A DNA stretch of 32,000 nucleotides. It comes from Propionibacterium ruminifibrarum. Its GTDB lineage: Bacteria > Actinomycetota > Actinomycetes > Propionibacteriales > Propionibacteriaceae. The stretch is from positions 326,697 through 358,696 of the forward strand of contig NZ_OMOH01000003.1 of NCBI RefSeq assembly GCF_900289195.1. The letters are read 5' to 3'. Positions 11,562-31,755 of this stretch are shown here, piece by piece; position 1 is the first letter of the stretch, and every line of letters begins with the position of its first letter. Under the pieces are notes generated by a model. That model was given only the letters and a program-made list of their open reading frames with translations. It ran no database searches and was not told the origin of the DNA. Made by a program: the position numbers and the translations under genes.

Positions 11562-11652
11562 CTGCGCACTGTGAGTCCGGTGTTCTTCCTCCCCGAGTGG
11601 CGCTCCGGGGAGATGTCGTCGGCGAGTGAGGCGCCAACGGGTCACGGCGGTG

Positions 11653-12384: not shown

Positions 12385-12441
12385 GCCGTCAATCTACTAG
12401 GCGTGACGTGGCCGGTGCCGAGCACGAAAAGATTACATGTT

Positions 12442-12477: not shown

Positions 12478-12539
12478 CGTCCCCATACCGACGCCGCGCA
12501 GCGTTGCGCGAGTCGTCCGAACGATGACGAGGAGGTCAC

Positions 12540-13871: not shown

Positions 13872-13909
13872 TCGTCAGGGGCCGGGAAACTGGAAAGGAA
13901 GTGAGGACA

Positions 13910-14722
13910 ATGGGCCTGGGGATCGGCACCTACGCCCTGTTCTGGGAGTGGTCTGAGGCGGTCGAGCATCCCATCGACCTGACGGGCATGCTCGACGTGG
14001 CGGCCGAACTCGACTGCGATGTCTTTCAGATCTGCGACTACCCGCTCATCGAGACGATGGACGTCCATCAGCTGAACGACATCGCCGCCCAGGCTCGTGG
14101 GCTGGGCCTGGAGCTCGAGCTGGGCACCCGTGGCACACGCTCCGAGCACCTGAACAGGTACCTGGACATCGCCGAGACGCTGGGCGCCCACATGCTGCGC
14201 TCCATGGTGCGCGTGGGCGCCGGCGAACCCACACTCGACGAGTCCCTCGCCTCGGTCCGGGGACTGCTGGCGCGGCTCCACGAGAACGGCGTCTCGATCG
14301 CCTTCGAGACCTATGAACAGCTGCCCAGCGAGCGTCTCGTGCAGTTCGTGACCGATGTCAACGATCCGCACGTCGGCATCTGCCTCGACCCCGCCAACTG
14401 CGTCGCCGGGCTCGAACTGCCCGGTGACGTGATCGGTCGCTGTGCGCCGTACACGCTCAACCTGCACGTGAAGGACTTCGCCTTCACCCGCCAGGCGGGC
14501 TGGGTGGGGTTCACCTACGCGGGGGCGGCGATGGGGGAGGGGCTGCTCGACTTCGACGCCGAGATGAAGGCGGTCCGTCCCCTCGAACGGGGCATCAACA
14601 TGATCGTCGAGCACTGGCTCACCTGGCAGGGCGACCCGAAGTCCACCGTCGCGCTGGAGCGGCAGTGGACACGCCGGAGCCTCGACTACATCCGCAACTA
14701 CATCGAAACCAAGGAGAACTGA
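13910..14722 (+). CDS. Sugar-phosphate isomerase/epimerase (xylose-isomerase-like TIM barrel, AP_endonuc_2 type)
   Basis: About 270 aa with an alternating beta/alpha pattern and metal-ligand-like motifs (FETYE, ICLDPANC, LHVKDF, IVEHW). I prefer ATG 13910, with GGAAAGGAAG 9 nt upstream, to GTG 13901. Confidence 0.7.
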   Translation: MGLGIGTYALFWEWSEAVEHPIDLTGMLDVAAELDCDVFQICDYPLIETMDVHQLNDIAAQARGLGLELELGTRGTRSEHLNRYLDIAETLGAHMLRSMVRVGAGEPTLDESLASVRGLLARLHENGVSIAFETYEQLPSERLVQFVTDVNDPHVGICLDPANCVAGLELPGDVIGRCAPYTLNLHVKDFAFTRQAGWVGFTYAGAAMGEGLLDFDAEMKAVRPLERGINMIVEHWLTWQGDPKSTVALERQWTRRSLDYIRNYIETKEN

Positions 14723-14725
14723 ACC

Positions 14726-15580
14726 ATGAGTGAGAACCTGAAGATCGCAGTCGTCGGCGCCGGCGGCAAGATGGGCATGCGCGTGTCCAACAACCTGCAG
14801 CGCACCGACTGGACCGTGTTCTACTGCGAGAACGGTGAGGCCGGGAGGCAGCGCGTGCAGGAGGCGGGCCGCGAGGTCGTGCCGACCGACGATGTCATCG
14901 GTGACGTCGACGTCGCGATCCTGGCCGTGCCCGACGTGGCCCTTGAGCCCGTCACCGCCGACGTCGTCCCCAAGATGAAGTCCGGCGCCATGGTGCTGAC
15001 CCTCGACCCGGCGGCGGCCTATGCCGGCCTGCTGACCATGCGCGATGATCTCGACTATGTCGTGGCCCACCCCACGCATCCGTCGGTGTTCCTCGAGCGC
15101 CACACGCCGGAGGAGTACGCCGACACCTTCGGTGGTGTTGCCGCCCCGCAGAACTCGGTCGCGGCGCTGCAGCAGGGCGACGAGTCGATCAAGCCGCTCG
15201 CCGAGAAGATCATCTCGACCATGTACGGTCCGGTCATCAAGGTCTACTGGACCTCGGTGCACGACCTGGCCGTGCTCGAACCCACCCTCAACGAGACCAT
15301 CGGCTGCATGATCGGCCAGTTCCTCAAGGACGCCATCGACGCCACGGTATGCCACACCGACATGGACGAGGCGACCGTGACAGCCATGATCCATGGCCAC
15401 ATCTGGATCGCCCTGACCAATGCCCTGCGCGGCTCGAACCCGTTCTCGGACGCCTGCCTGCTGGCCATGGACTACGGCCGCGAGGCCATCATCAAGGACG
15501 ATTGGGAACGCATCTTCAACGATGACGACCTCGACATCGTCATCGCCAAGATGCTCAAGCTCGACAAGGTCAGGCACTGA
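14726..15580 (+). CDS. NAD(P)-binding oxidoreductase (Rossmann N-domain plus 6PGDH-C-like helical domain)
   Basis: KIAVVGAGGKMG dinucleotide-binding motif at the N-terminus. AAGGAGAA RBS is present. The ATG lies 3 nt after the upstream stop. Substrate unknown. Confidence 0.65.
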   Translation: MSENLKIAVVGAGGKMGMRVSNNLQRTDWTVFYCENGEAGRQRVQEAGREVVPTDDVIGDVDVAILAVPDVALEPVTADVVPKMKSGAMVLTLDPAAAYAGLLTMRDDLDYVVAHPTHPSVFLERHTPEEYADTFGGVAAPQNSVAALQQGDESIKPLAEKIISTMYGPVIKVYWTSVHDLAVLEPTLNETIGCMIGQFLKDAIDATVCHTDMDEATVTAMIHGHIWIALTNALRGSNPFSDACLLAMDYGREAIIKDDWERIFNDDDLDIVIAKMLKLDKVRH

Positions 15581-15605
15581 CCGACTGTCGGATCGGCGAA
15601 GAAAG

Positions 15606-15641
15606 AGGGATGGTGGTCTCGTCAAGGAGGCCACCATCCCT
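15606..15641 (+). terminator. Intra-operon stem-loop between the oxidoreductase and the DAK-type kinase
   Basis: A 15-bp stem: AGGGATGGTGGTCTC pairs with GAGGCCACCATCCCT (one G-U pair). Loop is GTCAAG. The 3' arm and loop contain AAGGAGG. It is followed by TATATCCTGT. Confidence 0.45.
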
Positions 15642-15719
15642 ATATCCTGTAGGAACTAACCCTATGGTTCGGGCCGCTGGGCCCTCAACGATGAGCACAA
15701 CCATGAGATGGGAGAGACA

Positions 15720-17420
15720 ATGACGTACCTGGTTGGCGAGCCGCTGGATTTCGCGGCTGACAGTCTTGCGGGCTTCGTGGCCGCGCACTCTGATCTGGTC
15801 CAGGCGGTTCACGGTGGCGTGGTCCGCGCCGACGCCTCACCGCAGGGCGAGGTGGCCGTCGTCGTCGGCGGGGGTTCCGGTCATTACCCGGCGTTCGCGG
15901 GCTGGGTTGGCCCGGGCATGGCCCACGCTGCCGTCTGCGGCAACATCTTCGCCTCGCCGTCGGACTCGCAGGTCGTGTCGGTCTCGAGGGCGGCCGACAA
16001 CGGCGGGGGCGTCCTGCTGCTGTTCGGCAACTACGCCGGTGACTGCCTTCAGTTCGGCAAGGGTGCCGAGGTGCTCAACGCCGAGGGCATCGCCACACGC
16101 ATCGAGACGATCACCGATGACGTGGCCTCGCGCCCCGTCGAGCAGTGGGCCGAGCGCCGGGGCATCGCCGGTGACTTCTTTGTCGTCAAGATTGCCGGCG
16201 CTGCCGCCGCGGCGGGCTACGACCTCGACGGTCTCGTAGAGGCCACCCGTCGCGCGAACGCAGCCACCAAGACCCTGGGCATCGCCTTCGACGCCCCGAC
16301 CCTGCCCGGTGCTGCCGAGCCCCTGTTCACCGTGCCCGAGGGGCACTACGAACTCGGTCTGGGCATCCACGGCGAACCCGGCCTGTCCTCGCACCCGCTG
16401 AGCGGGGTCGATGATATCGCCAAGACCCTCGTCGAGGGCCTCCTCGCCGAGAAGCCTGCCGATGCGCGACGAGTCGGCGTCCTGGTCAACGGCCTGGGCT
16501 GCACCAAGTACGAGGAGATGTTCGTCCTGTACGGGCGAGTGGCTCGGCTGCTCGAGGCCGCCGGCTTGCAGATCGTCGTCCCGATCGTCGACGAACAGGT
16601 CACCAGTCTTGACATGGCCGGTGTCTCCCTGTCGGTCTGCTTCCTCGACGACGAGCTCGAGAAGCTCCTGCTCGCCCCGGCTCTGACACCGGCCTACACC
16701 CGTGGCGCCGTTGAACACGGCGGTCCTCGGCGCGAGGTCTCCACCGAGGAGAGCGCCGAGCTGGCGGCCGGTTCGCCGGAGTCGGCGGCGCAGGGCGCCA
16801 GACTCGCCACGATCGTGGCCCTCATGGCCGAGACGGCCGTAGCCGATGCCGACTTCCTCGGCAGGCTCGACTCCATCGCCGGCGACGGCGATCACGGGCA
16901 GGGCATGGTGCTCGGTTCGCGTGCCGCGGCGAAGGCTGCTGCTGTCGCCTCGGATGCGGGGGCCGGTGCCGCGACAGTCCTGAAGCAGGCGGGTCTGGCA
17001 TGGGCGGAAGGCGCAGGAGGCACCTCGGGGGCGTTGTGGGGTCGCGCGCTCGAGGCCGTGGGTGCGGGCCTGTCCGATGACGCGGCGGCCGATGCGGCCA
17101 CAGTGATCGCCGCTGTCGCAGCCGGTGCCGAATCCGTGGCTGCCAGCGGCGGCGCCGTGCCAGGCGACAAGACGATGGTCGACGCCACTACTCCGTTCGC
17201 CGTTGCGCTGCGCGATGCCGGTGATGACCTGCCGGGCGCCTTCGCCACCGCGGCCAGGGCCGCCACTGACGGGGCAGAGGCGACCAAGGACCTCGTGGCC
17301 CGCAAGGGCCGCGCCACGACGCACGGCGACGCCTCACTCGGCCATCCCGACCCGGGGGCGATCTCCTTCGCCCGCCACATGACGAGGATTGCTGAGTACC
17401 TGGCCGATCATCAGGCCTGA
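15720..17420 (+). CDS. Fused DhaK-DhaL (DAK-family) ATP-dependent kinase with non-canonical substrate-site motif
   Basis: DhaK domain (VVVGGGSGHYPAF, ELGLGIHGEPG) fused to a DhaL domain (DSIAGDGDHGQGM, GGTSGALWG). ATG 15708 is an in-frame alternative start. Confidence 0.85.
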   Translation: MTYLVGEPLDFAADSLAGFVAAHSDLVQAVHGGVVRADASPQGEVAVVVGGGSGHYPAFAGWVGPGMAHAAVCGNIFASPSDSQVVSVSRAADNGGGVLLLFGNYAGDCLQFGKGAEVLNAEGIATRIETITDDVASRPVEQWAERRGIAGDFFVVKIAGAAAAAGYDLDGLVEATRRANAATKTLGIAFDAPTLPGAAEPLFTVPEGHYELGLGIHGEPGLSSHPLSGVDDIAKTLVEGLLAEKPADARRVGVLVNGLGCTKYEEMFVLYGRVARLLEAAGLQIVVPIVDEQVTSLDMAGVSLSVCFLDDELEKLLLAPALTPAYTRGAVEHGGPRREVSTEESAELAAGSPESAAQGARLATIVALMAETAVADADFLGRLDSIAGDGDHGQGMVLGSRAAAKAAAVASDAGAGAATVLKQAGLAWAEGAGGTSGALWGRALEAVGAGLSDDAAADAATVIAAVAAGAESVAASGGAVPGDKTMVDATTPFAVALRDAGDDLPGAFATAARAATDGAEATKDLVARKGRATTHGDASLGHPDPGAISFARHMTRIAEYLADHQA

Positions 17421-17725: not shown

Positions 17726-18022
17726 TGATCGGAGGGACATATGCACACGACGGATGCATGGCGCATCGGGTGCACGACATCGCCCCATGCGCACGCTGGG
17801 GATGGCCAGGTTGCTGACCGGATGGTTCTTGGTCCTGGGCCCCACCTGCTGAATCGCAGCACGCGAGTCGGGCTCGGCGAGGCAGACACCGTGGTGTGCT
17901 CCGCGTCTCAGAAAAGATGGGGCCATGCGCTCTGAAGCGCCATGGCCTCGTTCACACCAGTCGCCGAAACGGGCGGCGGGTTCACCAAGTTTTAGTTCAG
18001 CTATGTGACAAGGAGGTCCATC

Positions 18023-19402
18023 ATGGCGGGAGAACTGACTTCTCGTGTGGCGCCAGATGAAGCGACCGTGAACAGTGCCCTTGGCAAGGTGACCAAGCAT
18101 CTCATCCCATTCCTGTTACTCATGTACGTGATTGCGTTCGTTGACCGGACAAATCTTGGCTGGGCGCAACAGGAATGGGAGGCTAACTATGGGATATCCA
18201 CCGCTGCCTACACATTCGGCGCCACTTTGTTCTTCGTGGGCTACGCCGTCTTCGAGGTGCCTTCGAACCTGATCATGCACAAGGTCGGGGCGCGCTGGTG
18301 GATGACCAGGATCATGATCACATGGGGCATCGTGGCGGCATGCTTCATGTTCGTCCAAGGACCCAAGACTTTTTATGCCCTTCGATTCCTGCTGGGTGTC
18401 GCCGAAGCCGGCTTCTTCCCCGGTGTGATGTTGTACCTGACTTACTGGTACCCTGCTGCCCGCAGGGCATGGGCGACCGGGCTGTTCTACATGGGGCTAC
18501 CCATCGCCAATATGTTCGGGAATCCCCTGTCCGGGAGCCTGCTGGAGCTCGACGGTGTTCTGGGTATGGACGGCATCCACTGGATGTTTCTGGTCGAAGG
18601 AGCATTGGCCGTGGTCGTCGGCATTATCTGCCCGTGGGTTCTCGTCGATCGTCCCAGCAAGGCGTCATGGTTGACTGAAGAGGAGCAGCGGGACCTCACC
18701 CAGCAAATCGAACTCGAGGAAGCGGCAAAGCAAAAGGCCAAGCCGATCAGTTGGGGAAGGGCACTGGCAGATCCACGCATCCTCTATTTCTGCCTGATCT
18801 ACTTCTGCATCCAGGCCTCTGTCTATGGACTTACGTTCTTCTTGCCGAAACAGGTCACCTCGATGACTGGCACGACGGCAGGTTTCAAAGCATCACTTGT
18901 CACCGCGATCCCATGGGTGGTTGCTCTCATCGGAGTCCTCATTGTCCCCAAAGTCGCTGACCGGCGACAGAACCACCGTTTGCTGTCGGGGCTCATGCTG
19001 GCCTTCTCTGGAATGGGGATCATGGGATCCGCACTGTTTCTTCATCAGCTCGTGCCGGCGCTGGCGCTGCTGTCCATTGCGGCGATCGGCTTCACCTGTG
19101 CGCAACCCATCTTCTGGCAGCTCCCGACCAGGTACCTCAGTGGTGCGGCACTCGCCGGTGCCACTGGCTTGATCAATGCCGTCGGAAACCTGGGCGGTTG
19201 GGCTGCTCCGCTGCTGCGTACTTGGGCGACTCAGAGCGCATTCGGCACCGCAGACAGCCCAAATGAAGCGGCTGGTCTCGTGGTGCTCGGCATGGCGGGT
19301 GTCGTCGGTGTTCTGCTCGTCACCGGACTCAATTTCTTCAAGAAATCAGTAGAAGAACGTGAAGCTCTTTCCCTGCAGAGCGGGGAATCCTTGGACAAGT
19401 GA
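18023..19402 (+). CDS. MFS transporter, ACS type (L-rhamnonate transporter RhmT-like)
   Basis: AAGGAGG lies 6 nt upstream of ATG 18023. FVDRTNLGWAQ and GYAVFEVPSNLIMHKVGAR motifs and a multi-TM profile. First gene of the rhm-like cluster. Confidence 0.8.
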   Translation: MAGELTSRVAPDEATVNSALGKVTKHLIPFLLLMYVIAFVDRTNLGWAQQEWEANYGISTAAYTFGATLFFVGYAVFEVPSNLIMHKVGARWWMTRIMITWGIVAACFMFVQGPKTFYALRFLLGVAEAGFFPGVMLYLTYWYPAARRAWATGLFYMGLPIANMFGNPLSGSLLELDGVLGMDGIHWMFLVEGALAVVVGIICPWVLVDRPSKASWLTEEEQRDLTQQIELEEAAKQKAKPISWGRALADPRILYFCLIYFCIQASVYGLTFFLPKQVTSMTGTTAGFKASLVTAIPWVVALIGVLIVPKVADRRQNHRLLSGLMLAFSGMGIMGSALFLHQLVPALALLSIAAIGFTCAQPIFWQLPTRYLSGAALAGATGLINAVGNLGGWAAPLLRTWATQSAFGTADSPNEAAGLVVLGMAGVVGVLLVTGLNFFKKSVEEREALSLQSGESLDK

Positions 19403-19437
19403 ATCATGGAGAATATCTGACAAGGAGGATTGGAAAG

Positions 19438-20220
19438 ATGAAAGAGTATCAGAAGGCTGTATTCCCAGATCGTCACACGGCCGTTGTGAGTGGTGCGGGA
19501 GCACCTCGAGGGATCGCCCGCAAGACTGCCCACAGGCTAGCCGCCGAGGGCTGGGACATCGTGGTTGTCGATCTTTCCGACAAGGTGTTGGAGTTCGGGG
19601 ATGAACTTGCCCGGGAATATCCTGAGCAAGACTCCCTGGCAATCCAGCTCGACATCTCTGACGAGAATCAGGTGAAAAATGCCTTCGCTCGGATCAAATC
19701 GGAGATGCCGCCCGTGGTTGGTCTTGCAAATATCGCGGGAATTGCCTGTCCTGTGCCGTTGCTCGAACTGGACGCCGCGCTCTTCGACAAGGTTCTGGCG
19801 GTCAACTGCCGCGGCACGATGTTGATGATGAAGTACGCGGCTGAGCATATGAAAGAATATGGGATCGGACGTATCGTCAACTTCTCGTCCATTACTGCTC
19901 TGGATGGCGGAGGCACTTTCTCGAAATTCGCATATGCGGCGGCAAAGGCTGGGGTTCTTGGCATTACCAAGGGTGGTGCTCGAGAACTCGGACCCTACGG
20001 CATTACAACCAATGCGGTTCTGCCCGGTCCGATCGACACCGACATCATGGGCGGTAAGCTCACGGACGAGCGCAAGAAGCAGATGTCCTCGAACATTCCA
20101 GTGGGTCGTGTCGGCCAGCCCGAGGAGATTGCTGCCGTGGTGTCCTTCCTCCTTTCTGCTGACGCCTCGTTCGTCAATGGCGTCTCGCTGAATGTTGACG
20201 GTGGTAAGCAGATGCACTGA
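19438..20220 (+). CDS. Short-chain dehydrogenase/reductase (SDR)
   Basis: AAGGAGG RBS before ATG 19438. Gly-rich VVSGAGAPRGIARK, NFSS, YAAAK (YxxxK) and PGPIDT motifs are present. Confidence 0.85.
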   Translation: MKEYQKAVFPDRHTAVVSGAGAPRGIARKTAHRLAAEGWDIVVVDLSDKVLEFGDELAREYPEQDSLAIQLDISDENQVKNAFARIKSEMPPVVGLANIAGIACPVPLLELDAALFDKVLAVNCRGTMLMMKYAAEHMKEYGIGRIVNFSSITALDGGGTFSKFAYAAAKAGVLGITKGGARELGPYGITTNAVLPGPIDTDIMGGKLTDERKKQMSSNIPVGRVGQPEEIAAVVSFLLSADASFVNGVSLNVDGGKQMH

Positions 20221-20229
20221 GTGGTATCT

Positions 20230-20265
20230 GGGTGGCGGGTCTTGCCTCAATAGTGCCCGCCACCC
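20230..20265 (+). terminator. Intra-operon stem-loop between the SDR and rhmD
   Basis: GGGTGGCGGG (20230-20239) pairs perfectly with CCCGCCACCC (20256-20265). The loop is 16 nt. Confidence 0.4.
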
Positions 20266-20294
20266 GGGGTACCTGAGAAACAGGAGGAGGGATC

Positions 20295-21503
20295 ATGACA
20301 CTTCCGACGATCACGGATATCCGTGCTTATTTCATGGGCGGAGCGAGTTCTTCGAGTGGCGGCCAAGGAGGTGGTGATTATCACGATCAAGGATCTGGGC
20401 ACTGGATTGACGATCACATCGCCACTCCGATGAGCAAGTATCCGCAATACGAACAGTCTCGTCAATCATTTGGCATAAACGTGCTTGGTACGCTTGTGGT
20501 TGAGGTCGAGGCAAGTGATGGGACGATTGGGTTCGCTATTTCTACGGCGGGCTTGATAGGCTGTTTCATAGCCGAGCATCATCTATCCAGGTTCCTCATC
20601 GGTCGGCGCGTTGATGACATCAAATTGATTCACGATCAGATGACCAACGCCACGCATTTCTATTCCGGTGGTGGTGGCGTTGTCATCAACACGATCTCAT
20701 GCATCGACTTGGCGCTGTGGGATTTGTTCGGCAAGGTTGTGCAGCAGCCCGTGTACAGCCTGCTGGGCGGTGCGGTGCGAGATGAGATTCAGTTCTATGC
20801 TACTGGTTCCCGTCCGGACTTGGCACGCGAGATGGGCTTCATTGGTGGCAAGATACCCACGCACTACGGACCGCATGACGGGGATGCGGGAATTCGGGCA
20901 GAGGTGGAGCGGGTCAAGAGGTTCAGGGGTCTGGTGGGGCCAGATTTCTGGCTCATGTTTGACTGCTGGATGAGTCAGGATGTCAATTATGCTGTCAAAC
21001 TTGCCCATGCAGTGGCTCCGTTCGGCGTGAAGTGGCTGGAAGAATCGTTCCCGGCTGCGCAATATGAGAGTTATGCTGCTTTGAAACGGCAGATGCCACC
21101 AGGGATGATGGTCACCTCTGGTGAACACACTGGAAACCTTGTCGCGTTCCGAACGTTGAGTGAAACAGGTATCGACGTCCTGCAGCCTGATGTGGGATGG
21201 TGCGGTGGTCTCACCTCGCTCGTGGAGATCGCGGCGATTGCGAAATCAAAAGGGCAACTTGTGGTGCCGCACGGTTCCTCCGTCTACTCCCACCATGCCG
21301 TGATCACGTTCGTGAACACTCCGTTCAGTGAATTTTTGATGACGAGCCCGGGTGCCGATGAGATCAGGCCCCAGTTCGATCCCCTCCTCGTCAATGAACC
21401 CGTTCCAGTTGACGGGCGGATCAGCAAAGCGGAACTCACGAAACCTGGCTTCGGAGTGGACCTCAATCGCGCATGCCCGCTTGAAAGGCCATTTGTGCAC
21501 TGA
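20295..21503 (+). CDS. rhmD: L-rhamnonate dehydratase (enolase superfamily)
   Basis: 402 aa. Long stretches ([84 protein letters not shown]) match my recollection of E. coli RhmD/YfaW nearly residue for residue. AGGAGGAGGG RBS is present. Confidence 0.9.
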
Positions 21504-21505
21504 CC

Positions 21506-22351
21506 ATGGAGAAGCTGATGTCAACTGAAACGAGTCACGTTCCCCTTAACCGATTGAAAGAACGCCTTCGGGTTGGCGATGAACCTCAGCTGGGGTTGTG
21601 GCTGAGCAGTGGCTCACCGGCAATGACGGAGATCGCTGCGGGTGCTGATTTTGACTGGGGGCTCATCGACGGCGAGCACGGGCCCAACGGGATCGAAAGT
21701 CTCCTTGCCCAACTCCGTGCTATCGCTCCTCATCGAACGGCGCCGATTGTACGCCCCGCTGAGACGAGCCGGGTACTTATCAAGCAGATTCTCGACATTG
21801 GGGCACAGAACCTGCTGCTGCCGATGGTTGACTCCCGAGAAGACGCCGAGATGGCTGTCGCGAGTACTAGGTATCCGCCCCGGGGGACGAGGGGAGTGGG
21901 AGCGTCCATTGCCCGAGCAGGCCAGTGGGGCAGGATCAAGAATTACATGATGGAGACCGAAGATCAGCTCTGTGTGATTCTTCAAGTGGAAACTCGCGAG
22001 GGACTGGCCCACCTTGATGAGATAGTGCAGGTTGAGGGTGTTGACGGTGTCTTCATCGGCCCTGCTGACCTCGGCGCCGCGCTGGGGAGTCCCCCCATCG
22101 AGGAGCTCAACTCCATCGTCTGCGAATGTCTGTCCAAGATCCGCAGGGCTGGTCTCATCGCGGGATCGATCGCGTTGGAGGAGGCCACGGCGCGCACTTA
22201 CCTTGAAGCCGGGGCAAATCTTCTTGCGATTGCTTCTGACACTGATTTGCTTGTGCACTCCCTTGATGACTGCAAGAGCAGATTTGCCGATGTCACCACG
22301 ACTCGTGATTCACGTCGAGCTGGCTCAGGAAATAAAAGCGAGAAGGGCTGA
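21506..22351 (+). CDS. rhmA: 2-keto-3-deoxy-L-rhamnonate aldolase (HpcH/HpaI family)
   Basis: LKERLR.G..Q.GLWLSS, DW.LIDGEH.PN, IKQ.LDIGAQ.LL.PMVD, ATRYPP.G.RGVGAS and VEG(I/V)DGVFIGPADL match RhmA/YfaU as I recall it. ATG 21518 (GGAG 6 nt upstream) is an alternative start. Confidence 0.85.
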   Translation: MEKLMSTETSHVPLNRLKERLRVGDEPQLGLWLSSGSPAMTEIAAGADFDWGLIDGEHGPNGIESLLAQLRAIAPHRTAPIVRPAETSRVLIKQILDIGAQNLLLPMVDSREDAEMAVASTRYPPRGTRGVGASIARAGQWGRIKNYMMETEDQLCVILQVETREGLAHLDEIVQVEGVDGVFIGPADLGAALGSPPIEELNSIVCECLSKIRRAGLIAGSIALEEATARTYLEAGANLLAIASDTDLLVHSLDDCKSRFADVTTTRDSRRAGSGNKSEKG

Positions 22352-23537: not shown

Positions 23538-24374
23538 ATGGCGGGTACCCGCGAGGGGCACTCTTCCGGCCCCAGGGCCAGGCAGTACGCCATCGCTCAG
23601 GCGGTCATAGCCAAGGGCAAGGCGACCGTCGAGGAACTCGCCGATCTGACCGGCGTCTCCGCCATGACGATCTACCGCGACATCGCGGTGCTGGAGCAGA
23701 GCAACATCGTCCAACTCCACAACGGCACTGTCGTCGCGGTCGCAAGCGGCTTGCACGAGGCCGATGCGGTCTTCCGGCTGGAACAGGCCTCTGACGAGAA
23801 GCGACTCATCGCTGCCGAGGCCGCCACACTCGTCGCCAATGGTTCCTCGGTCATGCTCGACGACTCGAGTTCATCGGTCTGGCTGCTTCGTGCCCTGGCA
23901 GATCTGTCATCGCTGACGATCGTCACGAACTCCCTGCTCGTCGCGGGCGAGGTCACCGAGAACCGCTTGGCGCAACTGATCATGACCGGCGGCGAGTACC
24001 GGGCCTGGGCCCACGCCCTGATGGGACCGACCACCGTGCAGAACATCACGGCGATGCACGCGGACTACTGCTTCCTTTCCACCTCCGGTATCTCGTCGAT
24101 GGCCTGCTTCCACCCCTACCAAGAGGTGGCCGAGGTCAAGGCCGCCATGCTGCGCTCCAGCGAGGTACGGGTGCTGCTCATCGACAACAGCAAGTTCAAC
24201 CGTCGTGCGTTGTTCAAGTTCGCCGAGCTGAGTGACTTCGACCACGTCATCGTCGACGACAAGGCGCCCGAGGCTGATCTCAGGCACCTCGAGGATGCCG
24301 GTGTTGCCGTTACCGTGGCCGCGTCCCGGGGGCGACGCGGCAGGCAGACGGCCGTTACCGCGCACCGCGGCTGA
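23538..24374 (+). CDS. DeoR/GlpR-family transcriptional regulator
   Basis: GGAGGAGG RBS. N-terminal HTH ATVEELADLTGVSAMTIYRDIAVLEQSNIV plus a C-terminal DeoR-type sugar-phosphate-binding domain (TIVTNSL, DYCFLSTSGIS). Confidence 0.85.
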   Translation: MAGTREGHSSGPRARQYAIAQAVIAKGKATVEELADLTGVSAMTIYRDIAVLEQSNIVQLHNGTVVAVASGLHEADAVFRLEQASDEKRLIAAEAATLVANGSSVMLDDSSSSVWLLRALADLSSLTIVTNSLLVAGEVTENRLAQLIMTGGEYRAWAHALMGPTTVQNITAMHADYCFLSTSGISSMACFHPYQEVAEVKAAMLRSSEVRVLLIDNSKFNRRALFKFAELSDFDHVIVDDKAPEADLRHLEDAGVAVTVAASRGRRGRQTAVTAHRG

Positions 24375-24472: not shown

Positions 24473-24984
24473 TGAAGCATTCTCAAAGGTGACATACCTC
24501 AGCCAAGCTGTTACTGTTCAGTCATGGAACAGGTCATGGCGGACCGCTCCGGGGGTGTGATGCTCGCCAGGGCGACAACTGGCGTACAGGGCGGCGTCTT
24601 CCCGGCAGTCAGGGCCAACGGGCTTCCGAGTGGCGATCGTTCGCTGAGAATTACCTTGCCAACAAGGATTTTAGGGTTGCCTGAGGTGCTCGGTCCGCGG
24701 TTCTCGTGTGCCGCCGCTGATGGGGGTGGGTTGAACTCGGAGTCATGGCCGGCCGTTGTTCCATGGGGCATGACGCCTCGTAACAGTATTTGTGATGATG
24801 GTATCGCTGATGCTGTTAATGACGTGTTCTCGTGGGTGGGGCTCGTTACGCGCATCGCACTGCCCACCCCGGTAAGCACCCCGTGACGGATTCAGTCGGC
24901 GCGTCACACCTCACGTGGTGAGCCCGCGCCACGCCTGACACCGGGCGCAACCCTGTCCACCACTGAACGAACAAAGGAACAAGG

Positions 24985-26064
24985 ATGTTCACAACCTCCC
25001 TGGGGGTCTTCCTCTTCGGCCTGCTGGCCGCCATTGCCGGCGGAACCGTCGGCGCTGCGATCGGCGGCAACTACGCGTTCGTGCTCGTCGGTTTCTGCGT
25101 ACTCGCCTCATGGGGCATGTTCGCCGCCACCGGCAGCACCTTCGGCTTCGACTACCTGGCCTTCGGCCCCTTCATGGGGCCGCACATCGCCTTCGCAGGC
25201 GGCGTCGCGGCGGCCATCTACGCCCGCTACAAGGGACACTTCGATGACGGCAAGGACGTCAACTCCCCGCTGGCCGGCCTCGGCAAGCCCAGCGTCCTGA
25301 TCGTCGGCGCCTGCTTCGGCGTCTTCGGCTACCTCTTGCAGATCGGTGTCAGCCACGTCCCGTGGTTCGGTTCCCACACCGACTCGGTCGCCTTCACCGT
25401 CCTGTGCTCCGGCCTGCTCGCTCGTATCGTCTTCGGCGGTGTTCCGGGCAAGGGCCTGTTCAAGGGATCGCTGCACAACCCCGAGGCCTTCCACGCCGAC
25501 GCCACCAGCTTCCCGGCCAAGATCAAGCCCGGTCCCAACGGACGCTGGCTCGAGTGGCAGGAGAAGCCCTCGCAGCTCATCACCATCGGCTCGCTGTTCG
25601 GTGTCTTCGCGGGAGGCGCCGCGCTCTTCCTGGCCGCCAACGTCGGTGCCCATCTCACCGAGAAGGGTTTCGCCAACAACCTTGCGGCAGCGAACGCCAA
25701 CACCTTCGGTTTCGGCATCTCGGCCATCATCATCCTGTTCCTCATCACCAACCGGAACATGCCCGTTCAGCACCACGTGACGAACATCGCAGGCCTTGCC
25801 GCCGTCCAGTTCTTCCCCGTCCTCATGGGGGAGAGCTTCGCCACCTTCACCTGGACCGCCACCTCGGCCTGGGACTCGCACACCTGGTTGATGGCCTTCG
25901 TCGCGATCCTCATCGCGGGTTTCTTCGGTGTCGTCGCGGCAGCGCTCGGCGAGTTCGCCGCCCGCCTCTGGTACAACCGCGGTACGAGCCACATCGATCC
26001 TCCGGCCGCGTGCATCTGGATCAGCAACACCCTCGTCGTCTCACTGGCGGCGCTGCTGTCCTGA
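24985..26064 (+). CDS. Unclassified polytopic membrane protein (~10 predicted TM segments), candidate transporter
   Basis: AAAGGAACAAGG RBS. 359 aa with about 10 hydrophobic segments and one ~45-aa hydrophilic loop (PGKGLFKGSLHNPEAFHADATSFPAKIKPGPNGRWLEWQEKPSQ). I recognise no MFS, ABC, PTS or SSS motif. First gene of the kinase/phosphatase operon. Confidence 0.75.
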   Translation: MFTTSLGVFLFGLLAAIAGGTVGAAIGGNYAFVLVGFCVLASWGMFAATGSTFGFDYLAFGPFMGPHIAFAGGVAAAIYARYKGHFDDGKDVNSPLAGLGKPSVLIVGACFGVFGYLLQIGVSHVPWFGSHTDSVAFTVLCSGLLARIVFGGVPGKGLFKGSLHNPEAFHADATSFPAKIKPGPNGRWLEWQEKPSQLITIGSLFGVFAGGAALFLAANVGAHLTEKGFANNLAAANANTFGFGISAIIILFLITNRNMPVQHHVTNIAGLAAVQFFPVLMGESFATFTWTATSAWDSHTWLMAFVAILIAGFFGVVAAALGEFAARLWYNRGTSHIDPPAACIWISNTLVVSLAALLS

Positions 26065-26107: not shown

Positions 26108-26965
26108 ATGAGTCACGGTCTCGTGAGCAGCCCCACCGAGTTCGCCAGTGCCTACATCTTCGACCTCGACGGCACGATCTACCTCGGCAGCCAGCTGCTG
26201 CCCGGTGCCAAACGCTTGATCGAGGAATTGCGCCGACGCCGGATCCCGGTCCGCTTCCTGTCGAACAATCCCACCAGGGATCCCGACATGTACGTGAAGA
26301 AGCTGACCGGTCTGGGGCTGCCCACGGGGCTCGACGACATCTGCAACACCGTCGTGACCACCGTCCGCTGGCTCAAGCAGAACCACCCGGACGCCGTCCT
26401 GTTCCCGATCGCCGAGGAGCCCCTGTGCCGCGCCCTCACCGAGGCCGGCTTCGAGTTGAGCGATGACCCGTCCCGGATCGACATCGTCATCGCCTCCTAC
26501 GACCGCACCTTCGATTACCACAAACTCCAGGTCGCCTTCGACGCCATCTGGTTCCACAAACGGGCCATCCTCGTGCAGACCAACCCCGACCGCTTCTGCC
26601 CCTTCCCCGGCGGGCGCGGCGAGCCCGACTGCGCGGCCATCACCGCCGCCATCGAGGCCTGCACCGGTACCACGTGCCAGGTGAACTTCGGCAAGCCCTC
26701 GCCCGTGATGCTCACCGAGGCCCTGTCCGGCCTGGACGTCGACGTGGCCGACTGCGTCATGGTCGGTGATCGCCTCCAGACCGACATCCAGATGGCGCTC
26801 GACGCCGGGATGAAATCGGCGTGCGTGCTCACCGGCGAGGCATCGCCGGCCGACATCGCCGCCCTCGACGAGGCCCACAGGCCCACCTACGTTCTCGACC
26901 GCGTCGACCGCCTCATCCCTGCCCGGTACTGGGGTGAACTCGGCTGGTCGGAGGACGACCTCTGA
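26108..26965 (+). CDS. HAD-IIA family sugar-phosphate phosphatase (NagD/AraL-like)
   Basis: Motif I FDLDGTIY, FLSNN, GKPSP, and VGDRLQTDI (the GD..TDI typical of HAD-IIA). I set the start at ATG 26108 (AAGGAAGAAGGGA upstream); the track ORF start at 25928 overlaps the preceding gene. Confidence 0.85.
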   Translation: MSHGLVSSPTEFASAYIFDLDGTIYLGSQLLPGAKRLIEELRRRRIPVRFLSNNPTRDPDMYVKKLTGLGLPTGLDDICNTVVTTVRWLKQNHPDAVLFPIAEEPLCRALTEAGFELSDDPSRIDIVIASYDRTFDYHKLQVAFDAIWFHKRAILVQTNPDRFCPFPGGRGEPDCAAITAAIEACTGTTCQVNFGKPSPVMLTEALSGLDVDVADCVMVGDRLQTDIQMALDAGMKSACVLTGEASPADIAALDEAHRPTYVLDRVDRLIPARYWGELGWSEDDL

Positions 26966-27024: not shown

Positions 27025-28584
27025 ATGACCGACAACGGCCCTTACGTGCTGGGTATCGACTACGGCACCGAGTCCTGCCGCGTGGCCATCTGCGATCTGC
27101 AAGGCCGCCCGATCACCTTCGCCGCCACGCCCTACAAGACCACTCACCCGCACCCGGGCTGGGCGGAGCAGAACCCGGAGGACTGGTGGAAGGCATTGCA
27201 GGCCTCCACTCACAAGGCCCTCGAGAGCTCGGGTATCCCGGCTTCCGCCATCGCCGGCATCTCCTACGACGCCACGACCTTGACGATGGTCGCCCTGGAC
27301 GCCAGGGGTGTGGAGCTCCGCCCGGCCATCATGTGGATGGACGTGCGCGCCACCGAGCAGGCCGAACGGGCGAACTCGTCCGGGTCAGTGGCCCGTCTCT
27401 ACAACGGAGGTGGCCATTCCCCGGCGACGGCCGAGTGGTACCCCTTCAAGGCCGCCTGGTTGCGCGAGAACGAGCCCGAGACCTATGCCAAGGCAGCGCA
27501 CCTGGTCGACGCGCCCGACTGGGTGACCTACAAGCTGACCGGCGAGTGGACCACCAACATCAACTCGGCCGCCATCCGCATGTACCACAACCGTGACAAG
27601 GGCGGCTGGCCGAAGGACTTCTACGAGACCATCGGCTGCGGAGACGTCTTCGACAAGATCCCCGAACGCGTCCTCGACCTGGGCGCCCCGGTCGGTGAGC
27701 TCGGCACCATCGCCGCCCAGCTGCTCGGCCTGCGTCCCGGTATCCCGGTCGCCCAGGGCATGGCCGACGCGTGGGCGGGCCAGATCGGTCTGGGCGTCCT
27801 GCAGCCCGGGCAGATGGCTCTCATCACCGGCTCCTCCCACGTCCTCACGGGCCAGTCGGACAAGGAGATCCATGGCGAGGGCTTCTTCGGCGCCTACACG
27901 GACGGCGTCATGCCCGGCCAGTACACGGTCGAGGGCTCGCAGGTGTCCACCGGCTCGGTGCTCAAGTGGTTCCGCGACAATTTCGCCCGTGACGTCATCC
28001 AGGCGGCTGAGCGCGTCGGCCTCAACCCCTACGACGTGCTCAACGAGCAGTCAAGGAGCATCCGGCCCGGTTCGGACGGGCTCATCATCAATGAGTACTT
28101 CCAGGGCAACCGCACGCCGTACACGGACTCGAAGGCCCGTGGCATCGTCTGGGGTCTGTCGCTGGCCCACACCCCGGCTCACGTCTATCACGCGATTCAG
28201 GAGTCGGTCTGCTACGGGAATGCGCACAACCTGCGCGCCATGAAGGCCGCCGGTTTCGAGGTCAGCCGCATGGTGGCCTGCGGTGGCGCGACCAAGAGCC
28301 GTGACTGGATGCAGATGCACGCGGACGTCTCGGGCGTGCCGATCGCCCTGACCGAGGTCGGGGACGCGGTGGTGCTCGGAACCTGCATGCTTGCCGCGGT
28401 GGGTGCGGGGCTGTACAAGGATCTTCCCGAGGCGGCCGCCTCGATGGTCCACGAGATCGACGTCCTGGAGCCCGACCCCGAGCTGCACGAGGAATACGCG
28501 TTCTACGTGGACGCCTACTGCGACACGTACCCCAAGTTGCGGTCGATGATCCATGACATGGTGGACCACGAGGCGCAAAGGTGA
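27025..28584 (+). CDS. FGGY-family carbohydrate kinase (pentulose/tetritol-kinase-like)
   Basis: AAAGGAGAG RBS. LGIDYGTES, GWAEQNPEDWW and CGGATKSRDWMQMHADV are FGGY motifs. At 519 aa it is larger than typical xylulokinases. Confidence 0.85.
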   Translation: MTDNGPYVLGIDYGTESCRVAICDLQGRPITFAATPYKTTHPHPGWAEQNPEDWWKALQASTHKALESSGIPASAIAGISYDATTLTMVALDARGVELRPAIMWMDVRATEQAERANSSGSVARLYNGGGHSPATAEWYPFKAAWLRENEPETYAKAAHLVDAPDWVTYKLTGEWTTNINSAAIRMYHNRDKGGWPKDFYETIGCGDVFDKIPERVLDLGAPVGELGTIAAQLLGLRPGIPVAQGMADAWAGQIGLGVLQPGQMALITGSSHVLTGQSDKEIHGEGFFGAYTDGVMPGQYTVEGSQVSTGSVLKWFRDNFARDVIQAAERVGLNPYDVLNEQSRSIRPGSDGLIINEYFQGNRTPYTDSKARGIVWGLSLAHTPAHVYHAIQESVCYGNAHNLRAMKAAGFEVSRMVACGGATKSRDWMQMHADVSGVPIALTEVGDAVVLGTCMLAAVGAGLYKDLPEAAASMVHEIDVLEPDPELHEEYAFYVDAYCDTYPKLRSMIHDMVDHEAQR

Positions 28585-28606: not shown

Positions 28607-29968
28607 ATGATGTCAGATCTGATCGAGCAGGCACTGGCGAGCGCCGACGACACCGACAGGGTCGTGATGGGCGATGGGGTGCTCGCGGCGACGGGCCCCA
28701 TGTTCAGGGAACTCTTCGGTCAGGCCAGGGGTGTCATCATCGCCGATGAGAACACCTGGGCGGCGGCCGGTGAGCAGGTGAGCGCATCGCTCAAGGACGC
28801 AGGCGTCGAACTCGCCGAGCCGTACGTCTTCCCGGGCAGCCCCAGCGTCTACGCCAAGTACGAGAACGTCGAGTTGCTGCGGGAATTCCTCGCGCCACTC
28901 GATGCGAATGCCGTCGTCGTCGGCTCGGGGACGCTCAACGACCTCGTGAAGAGGGCCAGTGACGAGCTGGGGCGGCGTTATCTCGTCGTGTGCACCGCGG
29001 CGTCGATGGACGGCTATGCGGCGTTCGGCGCCTCGCTGTCGGTCGACGGGTTCAAGACGACGTTGACCTGCCGCGCGCCCCAGGGCCTCGTCGTCGACCT
29101 GCCGACCCTGGCAGCGGCGCCTCAGCGCTGCACCGCCACCGGCGTCGGCGATCTCATCGAGAAGATCCCAGCCGGAGCGGACTGGATCCTCGCCGATGAA
29201 CTGGGCATCGAACCCATCGACCAGGGCTCCTGGGACCTGGCCCAGGGACGGTTGGAGGCCGCCATCAGCGACCCCCAGGGTCTGGTCGACCGTGAACCCG
29301 GCGCCTTCGTCGCCCTTGCCGAGGGATTGGTGCTCTCGGGCCTGTCGATGCAGAGATACCGCATCAGCTCCCGCCCGGCCTCCGGAGCCGGCCACCTCTT
29401 CTCACACGTCTGGGAGATGGAGCATCTTGGCATGGACGAGGACCCGCCGCTGACCCACGGCTTCAAGGTGGGGCTGGGCACGCTGGCCACCCTTGCGCTG
29501 TGGCAGAACGCCGTCGACCTCGACGTCTCGAGCATCGACACCGAGGAAGTCGTCGCCCGGTGGCGCAGCCGCGAGGACACCGAGGCCTTCGTGCGTTCCT
29601 GGTTCACCGGGAACATGGTGGAGCCGGCCGTCAAGCAGACACTCGACAAGTACCTCACCGCTGACGAACTGCGCGGACGCATCGAGCTGATCAAGGACAG
29701 GTGGCCCACGATCACGGAGCGGACCCGGGCGCAGATCATCCCGCCGGAACGGGCCGAGGCGATTCTCAAGCAGGTGGGGGCCTACTGGCACCCGCAGCAG
29801 ATCGGCCTGAGCCGTCAGCGCTTCCGGGACACCTATCTGCGCTGCCGCATGATCCGCAGCCGTTACACCCTGCCCGATGCCCTGTTCGAGCTCGGCGTGC
29901 TCGATGAACAGGTCGACCGATTGTTTGCGCCCGATGGCTTCTGGGGGCGGCGTCCCTGGGCCGAGTGA
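28607..29968 (+). CDS. Glycerol-1-phosphate-dehydrogenase-like NAD(P)-dependent dehydrogenase (AraM/EgsA-like, dehydroquinate-synthase-like fold)
   Basis: VVGSGTLNDLVK, VCTAASMDGYA, TGVGDLIEK and GHLFSHVWEMEH (metal-ligand His residues), with a C-terminal IRSRYTLPD. GGAGAGAAAGGGA RBS before ATG 28607. Confidence 0.7.
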   Translation: MMSDLIEQALASADDTDRVVMGDGVLAATGPMFRELFGQARGVIIADENTWAAAGEQVSASLKDAGVELAEPYVFPGSPSVYAKYENVELLREFLAPLDANAVVVGSGTLNDLVKRASDELGRRYLVVCTAASMDGYAAFGASLSVDGFKTTLTCRAPQGLVVDLPTLAAAPQRCTATGVGDLIEKIPAGADWILADELGIEPIDQGSWDLAQGRLEAAISDPQGLVDREPGAFVALAEGLVLSGLSMQRYRISSRPASGAGHLFSHVWEMEHLGMDEDPPLTHGFKVGLGTLATLALWQNAVDLDVSSIDTEEVVARWRSREDTEAFVRSWFTGNMVEPAVKQTLDKYLTADELRGRIELIKDRWPTITERTRAQIIPPERAEAILKQVGAYWHPQQIGLSRQRFRDTYLRCRMIRSRYTLPDALFELGVLDEQVDRLFAPDGFWGRRPWAE

Positions 29969-30087: not shown

Positions 30088-31755
30088 ATGACTGAGAAAT
30101 ATGTAGTGGGACTGGATTTCGGTACCCTGTCCGGCCGAGCCGCCGTGGTTCGCGTCAGTGACGGTGAGATGGTCGGCACGGCGGTCTGCGAGTACCCGCA
30201 TGCCGTGATGGACACGAGACTGACCGCGGCGAACGGGCAGGAACTGCCACCAGACTTCGCGCTGCAGGACCCGAGCGACTACCTCACCGCACTCTACGAG
30301 ACGGTCCCCGCGGCCGTGGCCGACTCGGGCGTCGAACCGGCCGACATCATCGGCGTGGGCCTGGACTTCACCTCGGCGACCGTCGTGGCAGCCACCGCCG
30401 AGGGCACCCCGGTGTGCGAGCTGCCGCAGTTCGCGGACAACCCGCACGCCTGGGTGAAGCTGTGGAAGCACCATGGTGCCGTCGAGCAGGCCCGGCGCAT
30501 CGTCGATGTCGCCACTGAGCGAGGCGAGGAGTGGCTGAGCCGCTATGGCGGCGTGCTCAACTCCGAGATGCTGCTGCCCAAGGTCGCCGAGACCCTGGAG
30601 TGTGCTCCCGAGGTCTATGCGGCCACGGACGTCTTCTGCGAGGCCATGGACTGGCTCACCTGGCACCTGACCGGCCGGTTGACCTTCTCAGCGGGCTCGT
30701 CCGGCTACAAACGCATCCTCCAGGACGGCCGGTACCCGTCCAGGGACTTCCTGCGCCAGGTGAACCCGGGTCTGGAGAACGTCTACGACGAGAAGATGAA
30801 CGCACCGGTCCTGCCCCTCGGCCACAACGTCGGTGGCCTGCTGCCGGAGGTGGCGTCCAGACTCGGGTTGCCGGCCGGCATCGCAGTGGCCAGCGGGAAC
30901 ATCGACGCCCATGTCACCGGCCCGGCGGTGCAGGGCGTCGAGGACGGTGTCATGACGGCCATCATGGGAACGTCGGTCTGCTACCTGCTCTCATGGCCGA
31001 CACCTGCTCCGGTAGCCGGCATCTTCGGGATCGTCGATGGGGGGATCGTCGACGGCTCCTGGGGTTTCGAGGCGGGCCAGACCGCAGCCGGCGACATCTT
31101 CGCCTGGTTCGTCGACACCTGCGTCCCCGCCCGGTACCAGGCCGAGGCCGACGAGCTGGGCATCCCGGTGCACGAACTGCTCACCCGCAAGTGCGAGCAT
31201 CAGCCGGTCGGCGCCCACGGACTGGTGGCCTTGGACTGGCACAACGGCAACCGCTCAACCCTCATGGACGCACAGTTGTCCGGCCTCATGCTGGGCACGA
31301 GTCTCACCACGACGCCCGAGGACCAGTATCGAGCCCTGCTCGAGTCCTGCGCCTTCGGGGCCAGGACGATCATCGAGGCCTTCGTCTCGGCGGGGATCGA
31401 CATCGAAGAACTCGTCGTGGCCGGCGGCCTGACCAGGAACCGCCTGTTCATGCAGATCCTTGCCGACGTCTGCCGTCGTCCCCTCTCGGTCGGTACCGCC
31501 GAGCAGCCCGGCGCCCTCGGCTCGGCCATCTTCGCCACCGTCGCGGCAGGGGAGTATCCCGATGTCAAGGCTGCTTCGGCTGCCATGGGGGCGAAGAAGG
31601 AGGGCGTCTACCTGCCCGACGAGGCCCGCGCGGATCAGTATGACCTGCTGTATGCGGAGTACAGCAGGCTGTACGACTACTTCGGCCGAGGCGGCAACGA
31701 GGTCATGCACCGGTTGAAGAGCCTCCGGGCGCAGGCCCGGGCAGCTTCTGCATAG
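30088..31755 (+). CDS. Ribulokinase-like FGGY kinase (AraB-like)
   Basis: GAGGAGGAAAC directly precedes ATG 30088. VGLDFGTLSGR, the 555-aa length and GGLTRNRLFMQILADV are typical of AraB-type ribulokinases. I do not use the symbol because araA and araD are absent. Confidence 0.8.
   Translation: MTEKYVVGLDFGTLSGRAAVVRVSDGEMVGTAVCEYPHAVMDTRLTAANGQELPPDFALQDPSDYLTALYETVPAAVADSGVEPADIIGVGLDFTSATVVAATAEGTPVCELPQFADNPHAWVKLWKHHGAVEQARRIVDVATERGEEWLSRYGGVLNSEMLLPKVAETLECAPEVYAATDVFCEAMDWLTWHLTGRLTFSAGSSGYKRILQDGRYPSRDFLRQVNPGLENVYDEKMNAPVLPLGHNVGGLLPEVASRLGLPAGIAVASGNIDAHVTGPAVQGVEDGVMTAIMGTSVCYLLSWPTPAPVAGIFGIVDGGIVDGSWGFEAGQTAAGDIFAWFVDTCVPARYQAEADELGIPVHELLTRKCEHQPVGAHGLVALDWHNGNRSTLMDAQLSGLMLGTSLTTTPEDQYRALLESCAFGARTIIEAFVSAGIDIEELVVAGGLTRNRLFMQILADVCRRPLSVGTAEQPGALGSAIFATVAAGEYPDVKAASAAMGAKKEGVYLPDEARADQYDLLYAEYSRLYDYFGRGGNEVMHRLKSLRAQARAASA

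What the first reader, a model, noticed from the sequence alone, without database searches (positions are those of the whole stretch)
24985..26064. Unclassified ~10-TM membrane protein as first gene of the sugar-kinase operon: possible new transporter family
Seen: 359 aa with about ten hydrophobic segments arranged 5+5 around a ~45-aa charged loop, a good RBS and high-GC codon usage. I could not find motifs of MFS (no D-R/K-x-G-R-R/K loop), ABC, PTS-EIIC, SSS, GRP or aquaporin/GlpF (no NPA) families. Inference: it precedes two carbohydrate kinases, and no other transporter is in the operon, so it is the obvious uptake candidate for the unknown substrate.
Basis: partly seen in the sequence, partly recalled or inferred. 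Interest (0 to 1): 0.6.

Follow-up and report, generated by a model that had tools for sequence, protein, structure and literature searches.

The report
DUF7973/GrpO-family small-polyol uptake protein
This gene belongs to an untested family of membrane proteins that sits beside glycerol, propanediol and sugar-alcohol breakdown genes in many bacteria; it probably lets small sugar alcohols (here most likely erythritol or ribitol) into the cell without being an aquaporin.

Summary
The gene is real: 359 aa, ten helices in an inverted 5+5 repeat, AlphaFold pLDDT 97.5. It is not unclassified: it belongs to Pfam PF25928 (DUF7973) and is 33% identical over its length to E. coli GrpO, which RefSeq names 'propanediol utilization system permease'. 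I found no transport test for any member. Relatives lie in glycerol (glpK/glpD/dha), 1,2-propanediol microcompartment and polyol-kinase clusters in three phyla, often where glpF would be expected. No established transporter family matches by sequence; the fold resembles urea/ammonia channels only weakly (Z about 8), and a homologue models as a trimer. Best reading: a non-aquaporin facilitator for small neutral polyols, with uptake trapped by the downstream kinase. The host is a Propionibacterium near P. australiense. Its operon (annotated araBML in P. freudenreichii) fits the genetically unassigned erythritol/adonitol pathway of propionibacteria. The gene is first in the operon only because rpiB, upstream in most relatives, is missing. 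The scan reached a similar view earlier on E. coli grpO (e1-084432). New here: the link to erythritol/ribitol.

The parts
23538..24374 (+). DeoR-family repressor, probable regulator of the operon
   Evidence: PF00455 E 5e-44 and PF08220; linked to the locus in most relatives
24489..24517 (+). Conserved promoter-like element (GTGACA, 17 nt, TACTGT with extended TG); may overlap a DeoR-type operator (inference)
   Evidence: Same pattern about 510-530 nt upstream of the gene in P. australiense, P. acidifaciens and L003; 4 matches in the 2.78-Mb genome. The strict sigma-70 scan did not report it
24518..24972 (+). Leader of about 460 nt where relatives carry rpiB; no rpiB remnant detected
24973..24978 (+). 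Ribosome-binding site AAAGGA
24985..26064 (+). DUF7973/GrpO-family 10-TM inverted-repeat membrane protein, probable small-polyol facilitator; conserved motifs GPH(65-67), TD(132-133), HH(263-264), DPP(338-340)
26108..26965 (+). HAD-IIA phosphatase (AraL/NagD-like); probable overflow phosphatase for polyol phosphates (inference)
   Evidence: TIGR01460 104 bits, cut-off 100; directly downstream in 30 of 31 loci
27025..28584 (+). FGGY kinase of the AraB/pentulose-kinase side of the family; candidate erythritol (or ribitol) kinase
   Evidence: PF00370/PF02782; no NCBIfam cut-off reached; best PDB matches 3GG4 and 3QDK
28607..29968 (+). AraM/glycerol-1-phosphate-dehydrogenase-like enzyme; candidate polyol-phosphate dehydrogenase
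   Evidence: PF13685; best PDB match a G1P dehydrogenase, 9H4X, E 2e-31
30088..31755 (+). L-ribulokinase AraB
   Evidence: NF003154 690 bits (cut-off 428) and TIGR01234 644 bits (cut-off 583)

Best explanation
The protein is a non-aquaporin facilitator for small uncharged polyols. Shown or computed: ten membrane helices, both ends outside, two inverted five-helix repeats, and paired His and Asp residues at the starts of helices 3/8 and 5/10. Inferred: these paired residues line a two-fold pore that hydrogen-bonds hydroxyl groups; the protein works as a homo-oligomer (a homologue models as a trimer); solute moves down its gradient and is trapped by the next kinase, as with GlpF and GlpK. Here the substrate is most likely erythritol, with ribitol (adonitol) as a second or alternative one. 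Inferred route: FGGY kinase makes D-erythritol 4-phosphate; the AraM-like enzyme makes L-erythrulose 1-phosphate (the carbon it would oxidise has the same handedness as in sn-glycerol 1-phosphate); a TIM paralogue and RpiB make erythrose 4-phosphate; transketolase takes it on. AraB and AraD would serve the five-carbon branch, and the HAD enzyme would relieve phosphate build-up. My odds by step: it transports small polyols 0.8; it is passive rather than ion-coupled 0.65; the substrate here is erythritol and/or ribitol 0.7.
For: Family contexts: glpK/glpD or glpK/glpA clusters in Consotaella, Halanaerobium, a Bacillota MAG and Microbacterium; among dhaK/dhaL/dhaM/glpK in other Actinomycetota; 1,2-propanediol glycyl-radical microcompartment loci in Atlantibacter, Rhodopseudomonas palustris and 539 of 5426 E. 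coli genomes as grpO; beside alcohol and aldehyde dehydrogenases in Rhodococcus. The related GRM4 locus has a PduF-like MIP instead (PMC4207490). The four motifs hold across these contexts. Lys/Arg bias: family mean about 11.7 on the inner loops, 0.9 on the outer. Top 21 structural matches are all UT/Amt/Rh channels. Three copies of homologue P0147: score 0.97, best control 0.01; this mark was reached by 20 of 30 solved pairs and 1 of 23 single chains; runs agree in 100% of contacts, pLDDT at least 94. Local operon: rpiB upstream in 24 of 28 loci, tkt downstream in 13, araD nearby in 7; a TIM paralogue and a DhaK-L fusion adjoin it in G371, a DhaK-L fusion and a Zn-dehydrogenase in G343: the enzyme classes of tetritol catabolism (PMC10733421; family assignments from my own knowledge). 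All 21 P. freudenreichii strains use erythritol and adonitol, no genes were found, and this locus (araBML) was judged non-essential for arabinose by analogy with B. subtilis (PMC4437456). This genome has glpF beside glpK elsewhere, so glycerol is already served.
Against: No transport data for any member were found; the grpO paper (Lundin 2020) could not be read, so the basis of its name is unchecked. The family does not exclude GlpF: both lie in one cluster in G164 and G127, and 7 of 10 genomes tested have a MIP; E. coli GlpF is itself reported to pass erythritol. Some copies have no metabolic neighbours (L037, L089, L122, L123, L126-L129) and four operons keep rpiB and HAD, or HAD and AraM, but have no kinase nearby (L116-L119). 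The channel-fold match is middling (Z 7-8.6, rmsd 4-6 A, about 190 of 359 residues), and the N-half alone does not pick UT (Z 5.1, rank 11). No enzyme reaches an erythritol-specific cut-off (DerI model 130-159 bits, cut-off 240). The trimer was modelled on a homologue with three copies imposed.
Confidence: 0.5

Rival explanations
1. It carries the same small polyols but as a proton-coupled symporter or an alternating-access carrier, with the conserved His/Asp residues as the proton site.
For: H263, H264, D338 at 94-98% and D133 at 89% conservation; 5+5 inverted repeats are also typical of secondary carriers (own knowledge); kept beside GlpF in some clusters, which would make sense if it scavenged at low concentration.
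Against: Few charged residues inside the helices; nearest folds are passive trimeric channels; it is nearly always paired with a trapping kinase or dehydratase.
Confidence: 0.17
2. It works with the HAD phosphatase as a relief valve or a polyol-phosphate route: it exports dephosphorylated polyol, or imports polyol phosphates that feed the dehydrogenase and RpiB directly.
For: HAD is its tightest neighbour (30 of 31 loci); kinase-less operons exist (L116-L119).
Against: No HAD beside it in most glycerol loci or in the propanediol loci; no conserved Arg/Lys in mid-membrane to bind phosphate. A passive channel would export as well as import, so this overlaps the best reading.
Confidence: 0.12
3. 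The family reading is right, but the substrate here is a pentose or pentitol of the L-arabinose group (L-ribulose, L-arabitol), as the araBML annotation implies.
For: A true AraB, AraL- and AraM-like genes as in B. subtilis, araD near the locus in 7 relatives.
Against: No araA-like gene among the window's ORFs in the operon; AraB is missing from several loci that keep the permease, HAD and FGGY kinase (L003-L005, L011, L018, L028, L030); L-arabinose use has its own locus with an ABC transporter, and L-arabitol use is strain-variable while this locus is in all strains (PMC4437456).
Confidence: 0.12
4. It is not a transporter but a membrane enzyme, metal-binding protein or sensor using the His/Asp cluster.
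For: HH and Asp motifs could bind a metal; orphan copies exist.
Against: No enzyme or sensor profile; no soluble output domain; the same protein accompanies chemically different pathways that share only a small polyol input.
Confidence: 0.07

Closest known systems
Pfam PF25928 / DUF7973, including E. coli GrpO (WP_001086421.1, 'propanediol utilization system permease')
   Same: Full-length homology (33% identity, E 4e-36), the same four motifs, and a place in a small-polyol catabolic cluster.
   Different: Separate clade; 359 against 301 aa; a kinase operon instead of a glycyl-radical microcompartment locus; probably a different substrate.
GlpF/PduF aquaglyceroporins (MIP, PF00230)
   Same: Proposed role and gene position: polyol entry ahead of a trapping kinase or dehydratase; inverted internal repeat.
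   Different: No NPA, no PF00230 match, ten helices rather than six plus two half-helices; predicted trimer rather than tetramer; can coexist with GlpF.
Urea transporter (UT/SLC14) and Amt/Mep/Rh channels
   Same: Best structural matches (Z up to 8.6 and 7.0); 5+5 inverted repeat; trimer predicted for a homologue; paired histidines recall Amt.
   Different: No sequence match; rmsd 4-6 A over about half the chain, Foldseek TM at most 0.33; the half-domain does not single out UT. Common ancestry is open.
Bacillus subtilis araL/araM/araB and the P. freudenreichii araBML locus (PMC4437456)
   Same: HAD, G1P-dehydrogenase-like and ribulokinase genes; probably the same locus as araBML (inference from gene content and position in G371).
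   Different: No araA or AraNPQ transporter; adds a second FGGY kinase, DeoR, this permease and, in relatives, rpiB and tkt.
Erythritol pathways of Brucella (EryABCHI) and Mycobacterium smegmatis (EltD, LerK, DerK, LerI, DerI)
   Same: FGGY kinase, RpiB-type and TIM-type isomerases, DeoR-type regulator, end product erythrose 4-phosphate.
   Different: Brucella uses an ABC transporter, a flavin dehydrogenase and an epimerase; the route proposed here uses a G1P-dehydrogenase-like enzyme and needs no epimerase.

Membership tests
PF25928 DUF7973 | Match to the Pfam model | tested here: met
   Precomputed PF25928 on the 99%-identical cluster and all 120 listed relatives; Atlas cluster 100% PF25928, TM 0.96. 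The local Pfam scan gave no hit, probably because that copy lacks the model, so the score was not rerun.
GrpO-like permeases | Full-length homology with shared GPH/TD/HH/DPP motifs | tested here: met
GrpO-like permeases | Location in a glycyl-radical 1,2-propanediol microcompartment locus | tested here: not met
   Neighbours are HAD, FGGY, AraM-like, AraB; separate clade
MIP / GlpF | Two NPA motifs and a PF00230 match | tested here: not met
MIP / GlpF (works like) | Passive polyol flux | not testable with these tools
   Gene context only
MFS | Twelve helices (6+6), motif A, MFS profile | tested here: not met
   Ten helices, no motif A, no profile
Urea transporter (PF03253) | Sequence profile | tested here: not met
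   None of 150 family members lists it among the commonest matches; query has no Pfam hit
Urea transporter / Amt superfamily | Shared fold | tested here: inconclusive
   Whole model Z 7-8.6, rmsd 4-6 A; N-half Z 5.1, rank 11
Urea transporter / Amt superfamily | Homotrimer with one pore per subunit | tested here: inconclusive
   Three-copy model of homologue P0147 passes (0.97 against 0.01); other copy numbers and the pore were not examined
PTS EIIC | EIIC profile and EIIA/EIIB partners | tested here: not met
   No profile; no EIIA/EIIB in the operon
Erythritol catabolic operon | Erythritol-specific kinase and isomerases | tested here: inconclusive
   Right enzyme classes in the locus, no specific cut-off reached
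L-arabinose operon (B. subtilis type) | araA, araB, araD and an arabinose transporter together | tested here: not met
   Only araB is in the operon; araD lies on another contig

The most novel reading that the evidence does not exclude
DUF7973/GrpO is a second class of bacterial polyol channel, independent of aquaglyceroporins, with a trimeric His/Asp-lined fold not yet in the PDB; and this operon encodes the erythritol pathway of propionibacteria described biochemically in the 1960s, with the AraM-like enzyme as a new D-erythritol-4-phosphate dehydrogenase.
Probability: 0.35. Interest if true: 0.72.

Novelty: new variant of a known kind. Interest (0 to 1): 0.52.

Why it matters
If right, bacteria have a route for glycerol, propanediol and tetritol uptake that is unrelated to aquaglyceroporins, present in about 10% of complete E. 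coli genomes and in dairy, oral and skin propionibacteria. It would also put genes on erythritol and adonitol use in propionibacteria, a trait used for typing whose genetic basis a 21-genome study could not find (PMC4437456). Both points can be tested with one deletion and a few enzyme assays.

Tried and rejected
Pfam, NCBIfam and PDB sequence searches gave nothing for the protein or its alignments. Foldseek found no match at E 0.001 or better for the whole model or the N-half. The Atlas gave no usable hit once PF25928 was skipped; these blanks do not prove a new fold. 'Replaces GlpF genome-wide' was tested and rejected. An rpiB remnant in the leader was sought and not found; the 120-aa ORF at 24524-24886 has no RpiB similarity. 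The closest Sinorhizobium kinase (42%) was not in the ery locus, so it does not fix the substrate. A phenotype-genotype test failed: genomes lacking the locus were C. equinum and unnamed Propionibacterium, and the papers read gave no erythritol data. Metagenome locus scans failed or found nothing. No paper in the library mentions DUF7973, or GrpO with GrpM or microcompartment. Lundin 2020 and Barbier 2014 are not held. One search flagged four unpublished genomes (G001, G048, G088, G120); no claim here rests on them.

Full report
Observation. The ORF at 24985-26064 (+) encodes 359 aa, has AAAGGA 6 nt before its ATG and GC3 of 0.89, like its neighbours. An AlphaFold2 model from 150 relatives is confident (pLDDT 97.5, pTM 0.94) and shows ten long helices in two groups of five around a loop at 151-194. 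Profiles of the two halves align over 144 columns (probability 70%, E 4e-5), pairing GPH67 with HH263-264 and TD133 with D338PP. Lys and Arg fall almost only on loops 3-4, 5-6, 7-8 and 9-10 (family mean about 11.7 against 0.9), which gives both ends outside and the two halves in opposite orientation. NPA, MFS motif A and EAA are absent.

Identity. The local Pfam and NCBIfam scans give nothing, but all listed relatives carry precomputed PF25928, DUF7973. An exhaustive profile search finds 548 clusters at 50% identity. Following distant members led to E. coli grpO, 'propanediol utilization system permease', in 539 of 5426 complete E. coli genomes. It is 33% identical to the window's protein over the full length (E 4e-36) and keeps the four motifs. 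The grp cluster serves anaerobic 1,2-propanediol breakdown (PMC11724981). I could not read the paper that named grpO, so I do not know whether GrpO was tested. The host is a Propionibacterium; the P. australiense protein is 96% identical.

Where the family lives. Named members: after glpR-glpD-glpK in Consotaella; before glpK and a glpA-like gene in Halanaerobium; between a glp cluster and dhaKLM in a Bacillota MAG; before glpK-glpD in Microbacterium; in propanediol microcompartment loci of Atlantibacter and R. palustris; beside alcohol and aldehyde dehydrogenases in Rhodococcus; with FGGY kinases, Zn-dehydrogenases and transketolase in Rubrobacter. The shared theme is a small uncharged polyol. 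The related GRM4 propanediol locus has a PduF-like MIP in this role (PMC4207490). Limits: some copies are orphans, and the family coexists with GlpF, even in one cluster, so it is not a strict replacement.

Structure. Foldseek finds no significant match. The structural aligner ranks urea transporters first (Z up to 8.6, rmsd 4-6 A, about 190 residues), then Amt/Mep/Rh (Z 5.4-7.0); these fill the first 21 rows. The tool notes that such scores can reflect only a common arrangement of helices, and the N-half alone does not pick UT (Z 5.1, rank 11). I treat kinship with UT/Amt as open. Three copies of a 290-aa homologue (P0147) form a confident head-to-tail assembly: 0.97 against 0.01 for the best control; the mark was reached by 20 of 30 solved pairs and 1 of 23 single chains; runs agree in 100% of contacts, pLDDT at least 94. 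Three copies were imposed and the window's own protein was too long, so this supports self-association and is compatible with a trimer, no more.

The operon. deoR (23538), the permease, a HAD-IIA phosphatase (26108), a 519-aa FGGY kinase (27025), an AraM/G1P-dehydrogenase-like enzyme (28607) and AraB (30088). A promoter-like site 191 nt after araB probably starts a separate unit, so the permease is the only transporter here. In 31 related loci HAD and the kinase follow in 30, the AraM-like gene in 24; rpiB lies directly upstream in 24 of 28 with upstream DNA, tkt downstream in 13, araD nearby in 7. This genome, P. australiense and P. acidifaciens lack the operon's rpiB but keep a conserved promoter-like element about 500 nt upstream (24489-24517): the permease is first by loss of rpiB. 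In 151 Propionibacteriaceae genomes, 37 of 38 with the kinase orthologue (63% identity or more) carry the permease, against 11 of 113 without (relatives are not independent).

Substrate. This genome has glpF beside glpK on another contig, so glycerol is served. Loux et al. (PMC4437456) call a P. freudenreichii locus araBML, note that araL and araM are dispensable for arabinose in B. subtilis, and report that all 21 strains use erythritol and adonitol by pathways they could not find. G371, which I take to be P. freudenreichii from its size and the locus position, has the order DhaK-L fusion, TIM paralogue, deoR, (SDR), rpiB, permease, HAD, FGGY, araM, araB, tkt; G343 has a Zn-dehydrogenase and a DhaK-L fusion there. 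LerI and DerI turn L-erythrulose 1-phosphate into erythrose 4-phosphate (PMC10733421); that they are TIM- and RpiB-type, and LerK DhaK-type, is my own knowledge. From memory, the erythritol kinase of P. pentosaceum (EC 2.7.1.27) makes D-erythritol 4-phosphate; a 1968 paper cited is titled 'Role of L-erythrulose 1-phosphate'. The carbon next to the phosphate in D-erythritol 4-phosphate has the handedness of sn-glycerol 1-phosphate, and oxidising it gives L-erythrulose 1-phosphate, so an AraM-like enzyme fits this step (inference). In this genome an rpiB, a TIM paralogue and a DhaK-L fusion lie 7-14 kb upstream (10271, 10712, 15708) and could supply the later steps. No enzyme reaches an erythritol-specific model cut-off, and AraB and AraD point to a five-carbon branch, so ribitol remains as likely a second substrate.

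Mechanism and verdict. Best reading (0.5 overall): a passive small-polyol facilitator of non-aquaporin fold, coupled to kinase trapping, here for erythritol and/or ribitol. Rivals: proton-coupled carrier (0.17), valve or polyol-phosphate route with the HAD enzyme (0.12; four operons have no kinase nearby), L-arabinose-group substrate (0.12), non-transport role (0.07). It is a member of DUF7973 and a homologue of GrpO; it works like GlpF by inference but is not a MIP, MFS or PTS protein. An earlier agent of this scan reached the channel reading for E. coli grpO (e1-084432, seen after my own analysis); that is not independent evidence. The family is catalogued but untested as far as I could find; the link to propionibacterial erythritol/adonitol use is what this window adds. 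Interest 0.52.

Noticed in passing
window 6325-17420: Cluster of MFS, four-carbon acid sugar kinase-like and PdxA-like genes (7718-10118), rpiB (10271), a TIM paralogue (10712), GntR, a second MFS and a DhaK-L fusion (15708): looks like tetronate/tetrulose catabolism and may supply the isomerases missing from the operon.
   Followed up: partly
window 18005-22351: Low-GC stretch (0.55-0.59 against about 0.67) with MFS, SDR, a rhamnonate-dehydratase-like enolase and an HpcH-type aldolase, followed by a GntR gene on the other strand; probably acquired; also beside the operon in P. australiense and P. acidifaciens.
   Followed up: no
window 24489-24517: Conserved promoter/operator-like element and a leader of about 460 nt left where rpiB was lost.
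   Followed up: partly
L021:10023-11578 and L014:11690-13049: The FGGY kinase appears frameshifted in Cutibacterium modestum M12, and the AraM-like gene split in an Acidipropionibacterium MAG: possible natural mutants for a phenotype test, or assembly errors.
   Followed up: no
L116-L119: One Propionibacteriaceae genus keeps deoR, (rpiB), the permease, HAD and (araM) beside glpABC-like genes but has no kinase nearby.
   Followed up: partly
L040:3088-12576: Rhodococcus plasmids place a DUF7973 gene in a cluster of aldehyde and alcohol dehydrogenases, enoyl-CoA hydratase, CoA ligase and acryloyl-CoA reductase, suggestive of 1,3-propanediol/3-hydroxypropionate use.
   Followed up: no
L133:9998-11077: In an Acidipropionibacterium-like genome the conserved H67 is Tyr, so this His is not strictly required.
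   Followed up: no
L001:10717-15135 (just past the window end): Separate unit with its own promoter-like site: TIM-barrel sugar isomerase-like gene, 3-hydroxyacyl-CoA dehydrogenase-like gene, MFS, and a convergent GntR; it stands where tkt lies in relatives.
   Followed up: partly
window 2-2398: C-terminal part of a large protein, probably surface-located, with two similar beta-rich domains and a Pro/Glu/Ala-rich linker, followed by a WecB/TagA-like glycosyltransferase gene.
   Followed up: no
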